A stretch of 20,000 bases of DNA, taken from NCBI GenBank assembly GCA_000934665.2, contig KZ538526.1:44103-64102 (forward strand), written 5' to 3'. The position numbers were made by a program, and so were the translations under genes. How positions within the stretch are numbered: position 1 is the stretch's first letter; the number at the start of each line of letters is the position of its first letter. This stretch comes from Catajapyx aquilonaris (taxonomy: Eukaryota). The notes under the pieces are model-generated. The model searched no databases. It was not told the DNA's origin and saw only the letters and a list, made by a program, of their open reading frames with translations. Below are positions 3,600 to 18,545 of this stretch, piece after piece.

Positions 3600-5654
3600 T
3601 CAGTTCCTGCCATGAAATGCACTCTCTTTCGTAAAACTTAATGCTTTGTCAGTTTCTAATTCAATGGCTGCTAGTTGTGCCCTAAATTTCCGGTACTCGT
3701 TGATTGCTTTCTGGTTCAGTACTTCTTTCACCTTTTTCAATCCCTGGTCAACTACATAAATCTCTTTGGCAATTGTCCTCTTCAATTCATCATCGGATTC
3801 TGTGGCATGCTCAGAGAGACATGCCTTTACATCTGCTGGCAGCAATGCAGTCAGCATCCGTACAAATAAATTCAGCTGGGATTGATTCCTGAAACATAAA
3901 TGCAGGTTTAGCAGATTGCAAAATGCTGCTTATCAAAACTCAGCTGCCAAAATTAGGGTGTACATAACAATTTTGATTAGTCAGAGATAGACTGATGGAG
4001 AGAGTAACTGGGGATAATGCAATATTATAAACAAATTGTGATTATTTCACGAGCATGAAGACACAATATTATGATGAACCTTACTTGGCAAAAATGAAAA
4101 ACTTGGTCTCCTCTGTCATGGTCACCAAAATCCATCCTCCTGCATCACTTGTAGGTTTGTAGAACACCGTCTCCTTCCCCTCAGCCTGCAGATGCATCTC
4201 CAGTTCCAGGTTCTTCATGAGGTCTTCAACATCCACTTTAGGGCTGTCACAATTCAGTGCAATGTCCAGGATTCCTTTAGTGCTCCAGGCAGCCAGTGAC
4301 AAAAAGTATTTCCTGAATCGATCTGAAGGATACATGGAATTCATTTTCTCAACATGTGGCAAAGAGTTGTCCAAGTAAAAATGGTCCAACAATAGTGTGT
4401 GATGCATTTCCTCCATGACATACGATGCTTCCCAAAATAATGTGATACGGCCAGGATCAGGTAAATCCACTTTCACTGAAATAAGTGCACGTTTTGAAGT
4501 CACATATTTGCCAGGTAGTAGAATCAATCCTCACCTGTTAAAAGAAGCATATCTCGAGTAACAACTCCTCTGCACTCTTCTAGATGTGGCAGGGACCCAT
4601 CCCATTTCAAGGTATTTGAAGTGTATATCAAATGCTTGCAATCAGAAGACATAAGAAAGCTCCTTATCTGACTTACTGCCGTAGTGGTACAAACACATAT
4701 CTCAGCACACAAAATCCAGGACTCCGCAATCCTAAAGCTCCACGTATTCATGACATTCAAAGGAAGAACCCTTAATTCAGATAATTTTCCAGGAGAAATT
4801 GGGCAATCGTCCTCTAAGCCAACAATGGTCACCTGAGACTGAAAAAGGAGCACGTGTAACATTATACCATGTGAAACAACTACACTATGTAAGAAGTGTA
4901 AATATTGTGAATTCAAATTCAACATTGGCACCTGAGGGAGGCCCTCATCATGGAAATTCCAAACATCACATTTTACCTCTTCAGTCATTGGGGCAGAATC
5001 ACCACCAAGAACAGATGCGAAGGATTTGATCATGTCATCTTCTTCCTCCACATCAATCAAGGTCCTTTGAAGTCCGCCTTGAATTCCCTCCAGAGTACTT
5101 ATCAAGGGATCAGATGCTGCAGTACCAGACACAACGACACTGTCAAGAGTCACATGAGGGTCCACAAAGTTCGAGCTCCCGTCCCTGTATTGCAGCTTCA
5201 ACTTGTGACAACCTGTCTTCTTCGACAATGTCACCATTGCTGTGTGAGCATTTGGATACTTGTCAATTACCTGCAATGTTAGGAAAATCAGTACAACCTC
5301 ATTTCAGACAAATGATCAAGACATTACCACAAGTGACACTCCTTCAACAATAAAGACTCCCTCTGTCGGTGAGACGACAATGTACACCCAGCCATCTGGA
5401 GAGTCTCTTGCCAAGGCCAAAATCCGGCTTGCATCTTTCACGCCGATGTCTGCTTGCCGTCGAATCTCCCTCGCCGCATTAATTTCATAAAGTACTCCTT
5501 CGTTGGTGCAAGCAACGCAGCAGGTACATCTCTTAGATGACCAAAAGGCCAAGCTGAAGAAGTTGGCCGCAGTGATGGACCGCACGAGAGACTGCGGCAC
5601 ATACTTGACCCAATGAGGCTCCACTACGCTATCTCCAGCAGCAGAACTCGTCAT
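3600..5654 (-). CDS. FANCB: Putative Fanconi anemia group B-like protein (FA core complex scaffold), about 530-580 aa
   Basis: Phase-consistent exons 5654-5328, 5270-4535, 4475-4085 and 3888-3600 (1743 nt, 580 aa). An additional in-frame intron (4931-4833 or 4976-4833) is possible. The gene structure is well supported. The identity rests on recalled similarity to vertebrate FANCB segments, in the right order: coiled coil DPLISTLEGIQGGLQRTL, then NVMNTWSFRIAESWILCAE, then FIFAKNQSQLNLFVRMLTALLP, then the C-terminal helix YRKFRAQLAAIELETDKAL. Confidence 0.6.
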
Positions 5655-6412
5655 TGCTGATCACCTACGATACATCTGGTGGAAACATTGACACTTGAAA
5701 TTACTTGCGTTAATAATGTTACTGTATTTTTAAAAAACGATTTCCTTACAGAAATCCCCAAATGTGGTCACACAAAGGCACGTTGCAAGGCCAAAATCGC
5801 CATTTTTGGTCGGATATTGTACGCGCGCTTTCAGCCATAAAAAAACATTACTTTAAATTACATGCTCATATACAAATGTCACGTGCGAGTACCTTGTTTG
5901 GTAATTAGTTTATTAAATTAATCGAATTTAGGCGGGTGGAGCGAAGTTATTCCAGTATCGACTGACATCTGACCTCCAAGCACCTGACAAACGCCTGATC
6001 TTTGACCTTTCATAAACGCTAGTGACCATCTATTATCATCCACCAACAACGTATAACTAATCCGCATAGCCAGCATAATATCTACATAATGAGCAGCATA
6101 AAAACATGCAAAATGATAGCAATAGTTGATGGCGATTGCAGTAGTTGAGTCGGTACTGGTAATAAATCACATAACAATCACAGAAAGTACTTGAAGTAGT
6201 ACACATAGAAGGCCGGAAATAGTAGCCCCGCCCTGCAGCCGTGCGTTAATAGATCATCAGACGGATCCAGCCAGTGCCAGGGAAGAATCACTGCAATCAC
6301 AATAAGGGAGGGACGGCCTTCCTCTTTACCAGTTGGCATAAGAGGTCCCAGCGTGGCAGACATCAGGAAGAGTGGTGGGGTGGAGGATGAGACAGACTCT
6401 TCTCCATGCAAC
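5655..6412. promoter_or_regulatory. Probable bidirectional promoter and 5' UTRs between the FANCB-like gene and ninjurin
   Basis: Head-to-head start codons about 760 bp apart; locally CpG-richer. YY1-like CGCCATTTT near 5798, E-box GTCACGTG at 5878-5885, and a minus-strand UTR intron candidate 5892-5676. Confidence 0.5.
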
Positions 6413-11314: not shown

Positions 11315-13259
11315 TAGGCTACATTGCAATTGAATTTTTATATGCATTGGTATGGAGATGACTGCCAAAAATGTATGTCGCTTATATTCAGGTTTGCTTG
11401 CGCATGCAAGAAAGATAGCACTGATATGGACCAAAGCTCATGTGATTGGTACAGTTGTTTGTAATAGTTGATTGCTTCTGTGTTCTGGTGGAGTTTGTCA
11501 TTACTAGTTTTTATACAGAGATAACTGCCATACAATTAACTACTAAGGAATAATGTTCCATTCTGTGTGAGATTACTAAAATTTAATTGTAAGTGATATT
11601 CCCATCTGAGCAGTTGTTCCACAAGTTTCTCATTAGCTTGTGTCGCAATATTGCCTCTACAGATTAGTGTGGTTTCAGACAACTGGGAAAAGGACATTTC
11701 ACCAATAGACAGTGCTAATTTCTGACCCCTTCAGTGAGATGGAACAGAACATTACGTGAACTATCAGTGTAGGAAATATCCATTTGAATAACTTGAACAA
11801 TTTAAGCTTATTTGTAGGAGCTGTTCCTATGAGTACTATTGGTTACTATTGATGTGATTTCAGATAAATGGAATATGCTGCTGAAAAAGTTACAGATCTT
11901 TTGTTGAGATGTAATTCACCCAGCTGTCATTGAACCGTTATGAACCATGTGGAGACAGTAGCTCATCTTTCAAGGGAGATGGAAACTCAGGATTTACTGA
12001 ATAGAAACCCTACGAGCTTTCATTCATCGAAAGAACATGATAAAAGCCTGTAAATAGAATCAGAAATTGGAAGTCATTATTTTCTTCTGGAACTGATTTC
12101 TGGGCTAATTTTAAATTGTAATACACTTCCACTTGCAAGTAGCTTCCAGCAAGTTTTAACAATAATGCTAATGTATAATATATTACAGGAAGTACTTACG
12201 TGTCAGGGTTGTGTTATGCAAGTCACAATGCAGAGGAGAAATAGAGCTTGTTTACTCACTAAAATCACTGACATTCCCAAGGCAGATGTTGAAAAAATAT
12301 GCTTGTTGGGTATGAAATTATTGGTGATGGTGGCAGACCATCAGGCATTCAACTTAATTTCAATGCATAATATCTGTTCACTTATCCAACAAGCTGAGTA
12401 TTAAGATAATTGAGAGCTTTGAAATAATTGGTAACTATTCCTCCTGAAACTAGACAGTTGGAATGACTTCCTAACATTAGCCTACTACTGTAAAGTTGAA
12501 GTGGCAGTAAAACAAGATGAGTTGTGTGCATAAAATATAATGACGAACCTCCTGTGCATAAGTGAATATATATGTTGTGCTTCCTGCAAAAAAAAGAAAA
12601 AAAAGTTATTTGAATTCATTACTACGTCGTCACTAAGATGAATGGCAAGATGACTACAAAATGCAGCGTTGTCTTGTACACCATTACATAACTGCAATGC
12701 TTCCACAGCATGTTCTCACAGTACCTAAATGTTGCCATGCTTGTCAAAGCAGTACCTGTACTTGTCAGTTTTGCACCTGCCAGGGGTTACTATGCATTTA
12801 CATTGGTGTTGTGCAATGAAAAATTAAAGGATCTCTATAAAATACATTAATATGCCAAGCATCTGAGTATGTAATTAATATTGTAGAGGATTGTATTGAG
12901 TGTTACTAACTTTGCAAGCATAATTTTTACATATGATTATTTTGACGAGCCTATGGAGGGTCAACTGCCTTGCAAGTAGTTTATGGAATATATGCATGGG
13001 CCTAAGTGTGATGTTACTGATAATTGTGGTGCAAATGTGACCTGTTGGAAATGTTAATGGCAATCTTTGTGCAATAAGCTTGTCCTTGGTCTTAAAAATT
13101 TAGCAGGTGGATCTCAATTCTAGATTCTCACTGGATTCCTAAGAACTTGTTAATTTCGTACTTAATACTTTACTTTTTACTTCACTATTCTTTGGCTGTG
13201 GGGAAGGATGTTACATGAACATGTAATGCCTCATGATGATAATAAACCTGTCTGTGAAA

Positions 13260-14125
13260 TCACTGCTCATAATAAGCCACGTGGTCTCCAGACTTATACT
13301 CGTTGCCTTCCAGAATGCTCACCAGCCGTTGCACAGTTGTGTTACAGTCAAGCAAACCTCTGGCCCCCTCCTTTGACTGGGCCATGTCCATGAAGGCCTT
13401 TTTCGTGCCAGGATCAACGGTTTCTTTTACAGCACTTGCGAACATGTCAGTGTCTATGGGGCCAGGGCTGTAACTGAGCACCTTTATGGAAGGATTTTCT
13501 TCTGCTAGAACACGGAAGTACATCTCTCTGGCTGCTTTTCCAGTGCAGTAGAGACCCATGGTAGCCAGTGGTTTAACTGCAGCCAAGGAAGTCATGTTGA
13601 TTATGGTGATAGTTGCAGAGCCTCCAGCAGGGAAGACACGGAGGAATGCACAAGTTAGAGACATCGTGCTGCACAGATTGGTCTGGAAAAGATTAATTTG
13701 CAGTAAATTCCTGATTTCTAACTGGAATGAGTGGATTAGCTGACCTGGAAGTAGTCCTGGTAGACATTGTCATTGTACTGGCTGCAATAGTGTGTTAACC
13801 CACCAGTAGTTCCGGCATTGTGAACCAAAATGGCAGAGGGGAATGATTCTCCTTTGACAACCTTCGTAATAGCCGAGTGGAAGGCTTCAGTTGAGGTGTC
13901 CTTAGGAGAGGCAAGATCAACTGCAGCGAGTTCCACATGCACAGAGGACGAGACAGCAAGGACTTGGGTCCGTGTCTCCTCCAATCCCTGCTGGCTGCGA
14001 GCCATCAGGAGGAGGACAGAGCCTGGGCCCATCCTCCGTCCAAACTCAATGGCTATGGTGCGTCCTATGCCTCTGCTGGCTCCAGTCACCAGGCAAAAGG
14101 CCCGCTCTCCCCAAGGGTCAGGCAT
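13260..14125 (-). CDS. SPR: Sepiapterin reductase-like SDR, copy A (267 aa; lacks the C-terminal pterin-binding Asp)
   Basis: Exons 14125-13745 and 13682-13260 (62-nt intron). Motifs: TGASRGIG, HNAG, NMTSLAA, YCTGKAAREM, YSPGPIDTDM; C-terminus YKSGDHVAYYEQ. Confidence 0.9.
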
Positions 14126-14545
14126 TTCTGGAGCTGCCAAAGAGACAATCGTTTCTTCTACACAAGAAGCAGAAGGGGTATCTCTGAGAAGTTGAGATCA
14201 ACCACTTGTGGAATCTGTCTTGGAAGAATGCCAAGGGTAGATAATTATCAGGTTAGGTGGCTGTGTTGCCAAATGTACTGGTCCAATGGGACCGAGGTCT
14301 CCTCACCATCTCAAGCATGCTTCCTTTGCTTGCCACATGTTAAGCACCTGTATAATATCTGCATTTTATACTCCCTCTGGGCTATTTTGGAGTCAAAATT
14401 TTTAGTTAGGATGATGTAATCTGCAAATTGTAGAAATAAGGCATCTTGGTTCAGTCTAATGCTCACTCCTTTGCAACCTTGTTTGTCCATCTCTTCCTTG
14501 AGGTCTGCTAGATACTAATGAAATGCTTAATACTTTTCACTTCAC

Positions 14546-14551
14546 TTTATT
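14546..14551 (-). promoter_or_regulatory. Polyadenylation signal AATAAA of SPR copy B
   Basis: tttatt on the + strand, about 70 nt after the stop codon at 14624-14622. Confidence 0.55.
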
Positions 14552-14621
14552 CTTGAGTTGTGTGCCAGGATGTTACATGGACATTTAATGGCTCGTGATG
14601 ATGATATACCTGTCTGTGGAA

Positions 14622-15528
14622 TCACTTGTCAAAATAATCCACATGGTCTCCAGACTTATACTTGTTGCCTTCTAGAATGCCAACCAGTCTCTGCACAGTT
14701 GTGCTACAGTCAAGCACTCCTCTGACCCCATCCTTCGACTGGGCCATTTCATTAAAGGCCTTTTTCATTTCAGGATCGATTGATTCTTTTCCAATGCTTC
14801 TGAACATGTCAGTATCCACAGGTCCTGGGCTGTAATTGAGCACCTTTATGGAAGGATTTTCTGCTGCTAGAACACGGAAGTACATCTCCCTGGCTGCTTT
14901 TCCAGTGCAATAGAGACCCAAGGTAGCCATTGGTTGAATGGCAGCCAAGGAAGTCATATTGATCAAGGTGACAGCTGCTGATCCTCCAGCAGGGAAGATG
15001 CGGAGGAATGCACATGTTAGAGACATGGTGCTGTACAGATTGGTCTGGAAAATAATTACTTGCTGTGAGTACATGATTTTTGACTGGAATGAGCTTATTC
15101 TGGTGTGTGGGAGAGATGAGTAGCGGTGGTAGCGTGTATAAGCTGACCTGGAAGTAGTCCTGGTAGACATCGTCATTGTACTGGCTGCAATAGTATGCCA
15201 CCCCACCAGTAGTTCCGGCATTGTGAACCAAAATGGCAGAGGGGAATGATTCTCCTTTGACAACCTTCGTAATAGCCGAGTGGAAGGCTTCAGTTGAGGT
15301 GTCCTTAGGAGAGGCAAGATCAACTGCAGCGAGTTCCACATGCACAGAGGACGAGACAGCAAGGACTTGGGTCCGTGTCTCCTCCAATCCCTGCTGGCTG
15401 CGAGCCATCAGGAGGAGGACGGAGCCTGGGCCCATCCTCCGTCCAAACTCAATGGCTATGGTGCGTCCTATGCCTCTGCTGGCTCCAGTCACCAGGCAAA
15501 AGGCACGCTCTCCCCAAGGGTCAGGCAT
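14622..15528 (-). CDS. SPR: Sepiapterin reductase, copy B (267 aa; canonical C-terminus)
   Basis: Exons 15528-15148 and 15044-14622 (103-nt intron). Motifs: TGASRGIG, HNAG, YCTGKAAREM, NYSPGPVDTDM; C-terminus YKSGDHVDYFDK, like vertebrate FKSGAHVDFYD. An upstream in-frame ATG at 15699 is possible. Confidence 0.93.
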
Positions 15529-15901: not shown

Positions 15902-17883
15902 TCATGAGATGTCCTTCATGACACCTAGAATGTTAATCCCGGATGGCCCGAGATTCATCCTCCCCAGCATTCCCTTCTCCTTTGCTTTGACCCAGTGCAG
16001 GAACAGAAGCACAGCGTGGAAAAGGTTGTTGGCACCCTTCGGTACATCCACCACTTCCCCTCCCACTGCCAACTTGAACACAGGCGGATCAGTCTCTGCT
16101 TGGTAGATGACCATCGATGGCTCCTGAGGCGAGGGTGTCCCTTGCGGCGAGGTGGGCTCCCTCTGTGGTGTCCATGGATGACGCTTGTAGTACTTGCTGG
16201 AAAATGGCTTGGCTTGCTGACCCATGCACTGAGGTGATGGGAGGCATGCATCAAGGTATGCTGCCAAGAAATGCATCACAAGGGTGGAGTCAGCAGGCAG
16301 GTCGTGTGTCCACGGCTTTCCCCTGTAGTTTCCTCCACGATTCCAAGCATATGCACCCATACATCCTCCACCAGACAGCTCCTTAATCCTCCCCACGAGG
16401 TACTCCTGATGCTGAGGAGTGACATCCAAAAATGGCAGCAGCTGGGGAAGAGTGGGCAGCATCTGTACGGATGACGCAACTTGCTTCAGTTTGTCCAGAG
16501 GGCATCGTCCAATTTGGGTGTCTGGGAAACCCAAGCGCTCTAGGTGTGAGTTGGCTGACTCGATTTCAACAAGGAGTCGCAGCAAAATAGTCTGGGATAT
16601 CCAGGTCCGTAGATTCTGAGTCCACTGCACCAGTATATTTGGGGAAACCCCCAAGCGGGTCCACATCTCATTGCGATCCTCAGGGCGGCGAGTTGCAGCA
16701 TCCGCAGTGCGACTGGATGGCTTCCCTGGACTCGATACCGAGAGCACATAAACCTGTGAAATGAGCAAAGTTCAGTTAACAACCTATCCCAGACAAATAC
16801 GCATGGCAAGTGATCATAACAAAGATTCTAATGCGATAAAATGCTATCTGCTGTAATTCACAGCACCTGCTTGCGCCCTCTGTCCCCCAAGTATGAGTTG
16901 AATGAGGCATTTGCAGCATGTCGGCCTGATTCCTCCTGCAACAGTTTCTTTTCCAAAAGGTCCACCTCCTTCAGCAGACGATTCAGACACTCAGTTTCAT
17001 CTCTAGCAGGAAATGCGACTGGTGGTGCTGTTCGACTGCGACGATGTCTGGCACTATCATCAGGCGATGGTCTGTAGTACATCCACGAGGAAGAGGAGAG
17101 GGATGCATTGGGGCTCGACAGATACGACCCATCTGAAAGCCAACTGCATGACTGGTTGATGGGTGTTGTTGATGTGCTGGGTGGCCCAGAAGGTCCAGGT
17201 GTTGTGGGTGTGAGGAGGAGGTCTGATATATTGAGGGGATTTGGAGGAGGTGATCGCATAGGTCTGGCAGATGTGGGTGGAAAGGCAGGGTCATCTGGGG
17301 ATATGCCTAGCAGCTGGCGCTGTTTTGGTGACAGAGTGATTGGAACAGGAACAGCCTGTGGCACTCCAGAAGTACAGGAAGCAGGTGATATGTTCACCAT
17401 ATCTCCAGCATACATGTAGGTGTACAGGTGAACGCAGAGGTTCAGAATCAGACCAAAAGCCAAGGCCCATTCCAAGTACCAGAGGAGGAGAACACATCCA
17501 GGAGACGGCCAGCGGGACAAGCTAAATCAGAAATGTCTGTATGTTACATCATAATTGTGACAGTTGTAATCTATTTATTGCTATATGGCATTATGAAGCA
17601 CAGATTACGCACACTGCCACTGCTGCAGAAAAAATGCATATCTCAAAATTTTGGCTACCACTTTACAATTAATTAATGCAACCAGTAATAATTTCCAAGT
17701 GAATTCATCTTGACATCATTTGTCATACTCAACTAAAAGAAACACATCATGGCATATTTACATGTCAGTGACGACAATGGTAAGGCCCCATCCATTGCAG
17801 AAGCACCAAAACAGGCTCCCACGTGATTTTTCCAAAGATTGCCTGTGGTTCAAGACCATCTCCACCACTGGGCTGCACTGCAT
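15902..17883 (-). CDS. TMEM209: Transmembrane protein 209 (nuclear envelope protein NET31), about 542 aa
   Basis: Exons 17883-17762, 17521-16867 and 16753-15902, phases consistent (1629 nt). Two N-terminal TM segments (LWYLEWALAFGLILN), LSPKQRQLLGI, a Ser/Pro-rich middle, WTQNLRTWISQTIL, QEYLVGRIKELSGGGCMGAYAWNRGG, W..DLPADS.LVMH, and C-terminal PKGANNLFHA...GMLGRMNLGPSGINIL. Confidence 0.93.
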
Positions 17884-18231
17884 CACTGGAAACACAACAG
17901 CAAAGTCAGTATAACACGACATCACATACCACTGTCAGCACACCAGTGTGCCTGAAACCCAAGAAAACATGCAACAGCAATAAAAACCAAAATCATGACA
18001 AGACCATAGTCATAAACTGTTGCACTAGCAGCTGAAGCGGTTCTCCGCATGGCTGTTTCCATGGTAAAAAGGCAGTTTGCTTGCCCTGTGTACGGGTATG
18101 AAATGGGTGTGAAACAGGTATGAAACCAACCCTTAACAAACTTTCCCTCCACTATTATAATAAAATTTTTATACTAAAAAAAATCATTGAAAATTATAAC
18201 ATGTGACCAGACTCCTGTGTCTGTGACCCTC

Positions 18232-18292
<61 letters not shown>
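18232..18292. repeat. (TAA)n microsatellite
   Basis: About 20 perfect TAA units. Confidence 0.95.
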
Positions 18293-18295
<3 letters not shown>

Positions 18296-18545
18296 CAAAC
18301 AGGCTTCAATCGTAATGTGCTTGCAGTGTTCCAAGCTTTTTTTTTTTTTTCTTCTTCTCTCCCTCTCTTTCTTATCCATGAAGACTAATCAATGTGCGGA
18401 ACGATGCGATATAACTTCCCAATTTGAAGGGCCACAACCTCCCGGTTCAAGTCAAAAGCACGAACCTGCAGCTGTGATGGAGGCCAGTGCAGATGAAGAC
18501 TAGAAGACTCTGATGATGATGTCCCCAACCGACTCTTCCACTCAC

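What the first reader, a model, noticed from the sequence alone, without database searches (positions are those of the whole stretch)
13260..13682. Sepiapterin reductase paralog that has lost the pterin-anchoring Asp but keeps the catalytic residues
Seen: copy B ends SGDHV-D-YFDK (GAT, 14639-14637) while copy A ends SGDHV-A-YYEQ (GCT, 13277-13275). Both keep the Rossmann TGxxxGIG motif, the Ser of TSL and YxxxK, with intact ORFs. Other substitutions cluster after the catalytic Ser (IQPMATL vs VKPLATM) and in the lid after DTDM (FRSIGKESIDPEM vs FASAVKETVDPGT). Established: the C-terminal Asp (human Asp257, mouse Asp258) anchors the pterin ring in SPR. Inference: copy A is a neofunctionalised NADPH-dependent carbonyl or quinone reductase with a non-pterin or altered substrate (pigment or detoxification chemistry), while copy B keeps BH4 synthesis.
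Basis: partly seen in the sequence, partly recalled or inferred. Interest (0 to 1): 0.75.

Follow-up and report, generated by a model that had tools for sequence, protein, structure and literature searches.

The report
Sepiapterin reductase twin lacking pterin anchor
An animal, probably an arthropod, carries two side-by-side copies of the gene for sepiapterin reductase, the enzyme that finishes the cofactor BH4; one transcribed copy has lost the aspartate that the human enzyme needs to reduce its pterin substrate, so it likely works as a general NADPH carbonyl/quinone reductase while its twin likely keeps making BH4, though neither enzyme has been assayed.

Summary
Two tandem, intact, two-exon sepiapterin reductase (SPR) genes encode 267-aa proteins that are 87% identical. 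Copy A has Ala (GCT) where copy B and human SPR have Asp (257). Three DNA runs and a second, spliced (RNA-type) run show GCT and the tandem layout, so assembly error and silence are refuted. Of 28 family-conserved columns, B keeps all, alone among 12 SPR-like genes in this genome; A departs at only two, D263A and D266E, both in the C-terminal motif. Ala occurs in 0 of 328 homologs. Codons 1-109 (cofactor-binding half) are homogenised, most likely by gene conversion (dS 0.024 vs 0.295); the rest diverges under purifying selection (dN/dS 0.40). Asp-less SPR paralogs recur: 12 of 147 scoreable representatives (sea urchin, tick, tunicate) and two more genes in this genome. Best reading (0.6): a natural equivalent of the D257H mutant, which loses sepiapterin reduction but keeps ROS production. 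The substrate is unknown. The scan noted altered SPR paralogs once in another genome. New variant of a known kind; interest 0.4.

The parts
13745..14125 (-). SPR copy A, coding exon 1 (codons 1-127): Rossmann NADP(H)-binding half (TGxxxGxG, Arg43, Asp70, NAG)
   Evidence: TIGR01500 71.5 bits
13683..13744 (-). Copy A intron, 62 nt, GT-AG, phase 0
   Evidence: run X5 contig carries exon-1 letters beyond the acceptor (loose end at 13688)
13260..13682 (-). SPR copy A, coding exon 2 (codons 128-267 and stop): Ser159 (13589-13587), Tyr172 (13550-13548), Lys176 (13538-13536), lid, C-terminal motif
   Evidence: TIGR01500 151.2 bits; best PDB hits are human and mouse SPR
13275..13277 (-). Codon 263 GCT = Ala at the position of human Asp257
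   Evidence: covered with 0 other letters in X1, X2, X3, X5; Ala in 0 of 328 homologs
13266..13268 (-). Codon 266 GAG = Glu where the family has Asp (305 of 322 rows with a residue); second departure in the same C-terminal motif
12008..13259 (-). Long 3' UTR of copy A (at least 1.25 kb)
   Evidence: one X5 contig 12008-13531, 1524 nt, 0 other letters
13799..14136 (-). Homogenised (gene-conversion) tract in copy A, from 11 nt before ATG to codon 109
   Evidence: 2 silent differences in 327 coding nt; one collapsed 338-nt contig at about 1.5-1.65 times flanking depth in X1-X3; Fisher p 4e-6 on silent sites
15148..15528 (-). SPR copy B, coding exon 1 (matching tract 15539-15202)
   Evidence: X5 contig 15148-15504 with spliced loose end
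15045..15147 (-). Copy B intron, 103 nt, GT-AG, phase 0
   Evidence: X5 loose ends at 15050 and 15148
14622..15044 (-). SPR copy B, coding exon 2 with Asp263 (GAT 14639-14637); keeps all 28 family-conserved columns
   Evidence: X5 contigs 14540-15050

Best explanation
Copy A is a transcribed, spliced, intact tandem duplicate of sepiapterin reductase that keeps the NADP(H) site and the Ser-Tyr-Lys catalytic residues but carries Ala in place of the pterin-holding Asp, so it likely reduces non-pterin carbonyls or quinones with NADPH and is predicted to have little or no sepiapterin reductase activity, while copy B likely makes BH4. Mechanism: NADPH binds the N-terminal Rossmann half, which is identical in both proteins over residues 1-109 (shown). 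Hydride passes to a carbonyl held by Ser159 and Tyr172, with Lys176 assisting (residues shown; chemistry from established SDR knowledge). Without the carboxylate at 263, and with D266E beside it, the pterin ring would not be held in a productive pose (inferred from human D257H), whereas quinones, dicarbonyls and aromatic ketones, which wild-type SPR already accepts, would still turn over (inferred). History: tandem duplication, divergence of the substrate-binding half under purifying selection, and recent gene conversion over the cofactor-binding half that stops just before the loop residues 110-112 (pattern shown; that selection sets the boundary is inferred). This is specialisation on an old side activity rather than new chemistry.
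For: Intact frame and catalytic residues. Spliced transcript with GCT in a second sample. dN/dS 0.40 over codons 110-267, below 1 at p = 6e-4, after silent divergence of 0.295. Only 2 of 28 conserved columns changed in A, both acidic residues of the last five; 0 changed in B; about 4 would be hit if the 35 differences fell at random (35 x 19/158, my arithmetic). Asp in 311 of 328 homologs, Ala in none. Human D257H abolishes sepiapterin reduction with minimal effect on ROS production, and SPR accepts quinones, dicarbonyls and ketones (PMC7520308). Loss of the last five residues in silkworm gives an SPR-deficiency phenotype (PMC7137946). The exon-2 model's best matches are human and mouse SPR. 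An Asp-to-Ser paralog in this genome is kept with the same motif in another protein at 72% identity, so Asp-less SPRs can persist.
Against: No assay or ligand model. dN/dS is pairwise, so purifying selection on B alone could contribute; no close ortholog of the A/B pair was found (best 43-45% over the full length), so no per-branch test. D257H adds a bulky ring, Ala only removes the carboxylate; residual pterin activity is possible. Chlorobium SPR reduces sepiapterin through a different binding mode. No significant clustering of changes and no clear rate asymmetry beyond 263 and 266. No X5 contig was laid on A's own exon 1. One conversion tract cannot show that selection fixes its boundary.
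Confidence: 0.6

Rival explanations
1. Copy A is still a pterin enzyme with altered kinetics or stereochemistry: it binds the pterin in a shifted pose, as Chlorobium SPR does, or performs only one of the SPR steps, and shares the BH4/pterin work with B.
For: 26 of 28 conserved columns kept; 87% identical to B; Chlorobium SPR uses a swivelled binding mode that depends on Trp196 and Phe99 and gives a different stereospecificity (PMC7520308); Ala leaves room rather than clashing.
Against: Asp257 loss abolishes sepiapterin reduction in the human scaffold. A does not differ from B at the first residue after the conserved Met207 (Phe in both). I could not align A to the Chlorobium enzyme, which was not among the 15 PDB hits.
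Confidence: 0.2
2. Copy A is a redundant duplicate under relaxed selection; D263A is a tolerated loss of function and the gene is on its way to decay, with conversion from B masking decay in exon 1.
For: No signal of positive selection; exon-1 integrity is explained by conversion; lower contig depth than B in X5 (12.8 vs 48.7, a poor measure); the genome tolerates many SPR-like copies, one with Lys-to-Arg in YxxxK and one with Ser-to-Ala.
Against: Unconverted exon 2 has no stop or indel at dS 0.32 and dN/dS 0.38; apart from 263 and 266 no conserved column is hit in A; outgroups match A and B about equally at the other 33 differing sites (4.8 vs 5.2); the gene is spliced and transcribed.
Confidence: 0.12
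3. A's exon 2 acts mainly as an alternative last exon or as a partner subunit: spliced to B's exon 1, or forming A/B heterodimers that tune BH4 output, rather than as a free-standing enzyme with its own substrate.
For: The two mRNAs share 33 nt across the exon junction, so X5 contigs cannot phase exon 1 with exon 2; the only exon-1 contig carries B's letters at codons 110-120. SPR is a homodimer built on helices E and F, and codons 170-187 are identical in A and B.
Against: The exon-1 contig of X5 begins exactly one base after the codon-8 difference between A and B, which implies that both 5' forms were present (a polymorphism within B could also do this). A keeps its own ATG, splice donor and a 5' flank 83% identical to B's. 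A B-exon-1/A-exon-2 product would differ from A at only 4 residues and still lack the Asp.
Confidence: 0.08

Closest known systems
Animal sepiapterin reductase (SPR, classical SDR; human PDB 1Z6Z, 4HWK, 6I6P; mouse 1SEP; TIGR01500)
   Same: Same fold and motifs; exon 2 is 44% identical to human SPR in the structural alignment; TGxxxGxG, Arg43, NAG, Ser-Tyr-Lys, PGP, DTDM kept.
   Different: Copy A lacks the Asp257-equivalent and has Glu for the Asp260-equivalent; copy B has both.
Engineered human SPR D257H (Yang et al. 2013, seen only as cited in PMC7520308)
   Same: Loss of the same carboxylate with catalytic residues intact; the mutant loses sepiapterin reduction and keeps ROS production.
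   Different: Here the change is natural, is to Ala, and comes with D266E and 33 further differences from its twin; no activity is measured.
Drosophila Sptr / CG12116 neighbouring SPR pair
   Same: Adjacent SPR paralogs in an arthropod, predicted by homology modelling to differ in substrate selectivity (PMC8733705 citing Kim et al. 2015).
   Different: I did not see the CG12116 protein or the modelling paper, so whether it lacks the Asp is untested. The pair here is 87% identical with a converted N-terminal half.
Chlorobium tepidum SPR (PDB 2BD0)
   Same: An SPR-family enzyme whose substrate site differs from the mammalian one.
   Different: It still reduces sepiapterin, through Trp196 and Phe99; not among the PDB sequence hits of copy A exon 2; not aligned here.
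Benzil reductases and yeast YIR035C-type SDRs (NF005381; PDB 3KZV, 6UHX)
   Same: Next-best family after SPR for exon 2 (52 bits); a model for non-pterin dicarbonyl reduction by SPR-like folds (activity from the family name and from recall).
   Different: Far below the family cut-off of 258 bits; A descends from an animal SPR, not from these.
Islands of divergence amid gene conversion in Tigriopus GOT1p1/GOT1p2 (PMC3728101, abstract)
   Same: Duplicated enzyme genes with homogenised and divergent regions, read as possible selection for a new function.
   Different: That study had population haplotypes; here there is one tract, two samples.

Membership tests
Sepiapterin reductase family (classical SDR) | Profile match to TIGR01500 above all other families | tested here: met
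   Best family for each exon: 151.2 and 71.5 bits for A, 157 and 70.9 for B. Neither exon alone reaches the cut-off of 206.55; the rough sum does.
Sepiapterin reductase family (classical SDR) | Rossmann TGxxxGxG motif with basic residue for NADP(H) 2'-phosphate (Arg43) | tested here: met
   Identical in A and B, conserved in at least 94% of 150 representatives; the role of the Arg is recalled.
Sepiapterin reductase family (classical SDR) | Catalytic Ser, Tyr-x3-Lys | tested here: met
   Ser159, Tyr172, Lys176 in both copies
Sepiapterin reductase family (classical SDR) | SPR-type fold of the C-terminal half | tested here: met
   Exon-2-only model, mean pLDDT 73.5; the first 14 PDB matches are human or mouse SPR, TM 0.76-0.78 over the query
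Functional animal SPR (L-erythro-biopterin forming) | C-terminal Asp (human 257) needed for sepiapterin reduction | tested here: not met
   Ala in copy A; Asp in copy B. Copy A is therefore not filed as a functional SPR; copy B meets the feature.
Functional animal SPR (L-erythro-biopterin forming) | [quoted passage not shown] | not testable with these tools
   Needs an enzyme assay
Functional animal SPR (L-erythro-biopterin forming) | Homodimer through helices E and F | not tested
   No complex prediction was run
Chlorobium-type SPR (swivelled binding) | Trp196 and Phe99 equivalents | tested here: inconclusive
   2BD0 was not among the 15 PDB hits, so no alignment; A has no Trp in the lid
Benzil reductase (NF005381) | Score above curated cut-off of 258 bits | tested here: not met
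   52.2 bits for exon 2; not among the 25 families shown for exon 1
Pseudogene | Frame disruption, dN/dS near 1, or no transcript | tested here: not met
   Intact frame, pairwise dN/dS 0.40, spliced transcript

The most novel reading that the evidence does not exclude
Animals have repeatedly turned sepiapterin reductase into pterin-blind NADPH reductases by dropping one aspartate, an unrecognised functional class hidden under the 'SPR-like' label (sea urchin, tick, tunicate, this arthropod). This genome, with 12 SPR-like genes and up to three separate Asp losses, has built a reductase arsenal from a normally one- or two-copy cofactor enzyme. Copy A is the youngest split, caught while gene conversion still welds its cofactor half to the BH4-making twin, and it serves a specific lineage metabolite such as a defensive or dietary quinone.
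Probability: 0.2. Interest if true: 0.7.

Novelty: new variant of a known kind. Interest (0 to 1): 0.4.

Why it matters
SPR has a second, poorly understood activity (quinone redox cycling, dicarbonyl reduction) that can be separated from BH4 synthesis in the laboratory by mutating Asp257. If copy A behaves as predicted, A and B are a natural matched pair: same cofactor half, 35 differences, one with and one without the pterin anchor. That makes it directly testable which residues convert SPR into a general reductase and what the non-pterin activity is for in an animal. It also warns that many genes annotated 'sepiapterin reductase-like' (about 8% of the representatives scored here) may not make BH4. 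The chemistry and the evolutionary pattern are both known kinds, so the surprise for a specialist is moderate.

Tried and rejected
Assembly error at GCT: rejected. A and B as two alleles placed in tandem: rejected, since one contig (14107-15231) runs from A's start through the spacer into B's exon 2 and intron in X1 and X2. Exon-1 identity as an assembly collapse of divergent copies: rejected, since the runs give one shared contig at raised depth and no second divergent exon-1 contig was laid at 85% likeness. Clustering of substitutions after the Ser and in the lid: not significant. Accelerated evolution of A: quick trees give A/B branch lengths of 0.074/0.066, 0.092/0.037 and 0.096/0.051; the outgroup count favours B (211 vs 94 of 338 rows) but almost only through positions 263 and 266, and outgroups are not independent. 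Which copy changed at each of the other 33 sites remains open. Close orthologs of the A/B pair: none in three protein searches, the 50% representative search or metagenome contigs (best segments 50-56%), so no branch-site test. No run was on record as RNA; X5 was judged RNA-type from its splice joints. Contig depth was not used to rank expression. A full-length model with NADP and sepiapterin was not obtained; only exon 2 was folded. Primary papers on D257H (PMC3696693, PMC4352594) and on the fly pair (10.1515/pterid-2014-0017) are not held, so I saw nothing of them. Nine literature searches listed no paper describing a natural Asp-less SPR paralog or an SPR family expansion in an arthropod; the library lacks most subscription journals and I did not open supplements.

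Full report
Observation. The minus strand holds two tandem two-exon genes, B (15528-14622) upstream of A (14125-13260), each with one phase-0 GT-AG intron at the same codon and each encoding 267 aa without disruption. They differ at 35 residues (86.9% identity). All four exons match TIGR01500 (sepiapterin reductase) best. The sequence alignment to solved structures places residue 263 on human Asp257. A model of exon 2 alone (mean pLDDT 73.5) has human and mouse SPR as its first 14 PDB matches. Upstream on the same strand lies a TMEM209-like gene (PF09786; gene name recalled).

Is it real and expressed? Five runs hold the stretch; I laid four. Contigs of X1, X2 and X3 (one sample) cover the GCT codon with no other letter, and in X1 and X2 one contig links A's start to B's second exon, so the copies are tandem, not alleles. 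X5, a second sample from another study, is not on record as RNA, but its contigs skip four introns in the neighbouring genes with canonical ends and carry exon-1 letters directly beyond the acceptors of both A and B. One X5 contig runs 12008-13531 with 0 other letters, through GCT and 1.25 kb of 3' UTR. So A's second exon is transcribed and spliced. Limit: the two mRNAs share 33 nt across the junction, the single exon-1 contig has B's letters at codons 110-120, and no X5 contig was laid on A's exon 1. That contig starts exactly one base after the codon-8 difference between the copies, which suggests that both 5' forms were present; this is inference. Contig depth (12.8 for A, 48.7 for B) is no measure of expression.

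How unusual is the change? Among 182 homologs at 90% clustering, 180 have Asp and 2 (one cluster) have Gly. Among the best 150 representatives at 50% clustering (of 860 at E up to 1e-30), 135 have Asp. Of the 15 others I set aside 3 with aberrant C-termini (P0280, P0288, P0295), leaving 12 of 147, two of them Glu. Ala appears in 0 of 328. I looked up 10 of the 15: four carry organism names, Lytechinus (Ser), Ixodes (Val), Ciona (Lys) and Mizuhopecten (Glu), all 'sepiapterin reductase-like'. The searches rank by similarity to canonical SPR, so Asp-less forms are probably under-counted. Loss of the Asp is therefore rare but recurrent. Of 28 columns conserved in at least 85% of the representatives, B keeps all 28 and A departs at two, D263A and D266E, both in the last five residues. 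That both fall in this motif was noticed after the fact.

Genome context. The genome has at least 12 SPR-like genes: this pair and ten with a single long open frame at 35-41% identity to A and B, five of them on one contig. Each of the ten departs at 3-7 conserved columns, so B is the only fully canonical SPR. Two of the ten also lack the Asp: L014 (Gly, truncated, Arg in YxxxK) and L017 (Ser). L017 has a 72% identical counterpart, P0240, with the same Ser motif. L017 lies 14 nt behind a CCDC32 frame, as earlier scan notes said, and CCDC32 and SPR domains are annotated in one protein in Ephemera and Orchesella, both with Asp. This suggests that the copy at the old chromosomal position lost the Asp while the canonical function sits at the TMEM209 locus (inference). 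A is sister to B in all three quick trees (support 99-100), so its loss is independent of those in L014 and L017, whose own relation is unresolved.

Mode of evolution. Codons 1-109 differ by 2 silent bases only (dS 0.024); codons 110-267 have dS 0.295 and dN 0.118 (Fisher p = 4e-6 for silent sites; permutation p = 7e-5 for the longest run without a silent change). The 5' flank, intron and 3' UTR differ by 17-21%. The DNA runs show this tract as one collapsed 338-nt contig at 1.5-1.65 times flanking depth. Recent gene conversion is the simplest cause. The tract covers the NADP(H)-binding half and ends right before three consecutive replacements (110-112) in the loop after the NAG motif. Such islands of divergence can mark selection for a new function (PMC3728101, abstract only), but one tract cannot prove it. 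In the unconverted part dN/dS is 0.40, below 1 (p = 6e-4), which is pairwise and not branch-specific. Outgroups match B more often than A at the 35 sites (7.0 vs 4.9), but nearly equally without 263 and 266 (5.2 vs 4.8). So A's distinctive change is narrow: the C-terminal motif.

Mechanism. From PMC7520308 (parts 1 and 2 of 6 and passages): Ser, Tyr and Lys carry out catalysis; Asp257 hydrogen-bonds inhibitors in the substrate site; D257H abolishes sepiapterin reduction with minimal effect on ROS production; wild-type SPR also reduces quinones, vicinal dicarbonyls, aldehydes and ketones; Chlorobium SPR binds sepiapterin in a swivelled mode through Trp196 and Phe99. That mouse Asp258 bonds the pterin ring is recalled, not read here. 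From PMC7137946 (passages): deleting the last five residues of silkworm SPR gives the lemon SPR-deficiency phenotype. From PMC8733705 (passages): Drosophila has two adjacent SPR genes predicted by modelling to differ in substrate. PMC10213231 and PMC5041015 (passages) added nothing on this residue. Taken together, A most likely binds NADPH exactly as B does and reduces non-pterin carbonyls or quinones, with little pterin activity (0.6). Rivals are altered pterin chemistry (0.2), relaxed decay (0.12) and an alternative-exon or heterodimer role (0.08). Shown: anatomy, residues, transcription, selection pattern. Inferred: every statement on substrate. Nothing here bears on pigment versus detoxification.

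Novelty. The chemistry is known from the engineered mutant, SPR paralogs with predicted different substrates are known from flies, and conversion with divergent islands is a known pattern. Nine searches listed no description of natural Asp-less SPR paralogs or of an SPR expansion of this size; most subscription journals are not covered. The scan has one note on altered-loop SPR paralogs in another animal genome (unchecked) and none like this sequence. Interest 0.4.

Noticed in passing
G000 contigs C984, C1102, C4456, C5825, C7747 (loci L006, L011-L019): Ten further SPR-like genes with single long open frames; eight form a clade with a rebuilt lid (PG[V/L/I/F/A]..T[K/Q]L instead of PGP.DTDM) and C-terminal extensions, keeping the Asp. 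Twelve SPR-like genes in one animal genome looks unusual.
   Followed up: partly
L017:1465-2717 (- strand): The SPR-like gene 14 nt behind CCDC32 has Ser for the Asp; P0240 (72% identical) shares the motif, while CCDC32-SPR proteins annotated in Ephemera and Orchesella keep Asp.
   Followed up: partly
L014:1501-2292 and L011:1471-2301 (- strand): L014 has Arg in the YxxxK motif, Gly for the Asp and ends two residues later; L011 has Ala for the catalytic Ser. Possibly non-catalytic or altered enzymes.
   Followed up: no
protein P0345: An unnamed SPR grouping with springtail sequences has His at the Asp257 position, a natural counterpart of the laboratory D257H mutant.
   Followed up: no
window:15421: Run X5 has copy A's base at the silent codon-36 difference on a contig that otherwise carries B's letters, and X1-X3 also show A's base in the collapsed contig: the tract may be polymorphic, with conversion still going on.
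   Followed up: partly
window:15528-15902: Copy B starts only about 230 nt after the end of the TMEM209-like transcript (X5 contig ends at 15762). Both SPR copies have matching GT and AG sites upstream of the ATG (about 15670-15560 and 14280-14160) that may mark a 5' UTR intron.
   Followed up: no
window:12008-13259 versus 14540-14621: Copy A has a 3' UTR of at least 1.25 kb, copy B one of about 80 nt ending after an AATAAA that A lacks at the aligned place: the copies may differ in post-transcriptional control.
   Followed up: no
window:18780-19485 (+) and 15902-18466 (-): A Gemin8-like gene and the TMEM209-like gene lie head to head; X5 shows their introns.
   Followed up: no
window:11045-11210: A short repeat-like element with many divergent, highly represented contigs in X5 (summed depth several hundred).
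   Followed up: no
window:1558-2304 (-) and 3600-5660 (-): Exons of a rhodopsin-family GPCR (PF00001) and several open frames of 109-259 aa with no Pfam match.
   Followed up: no
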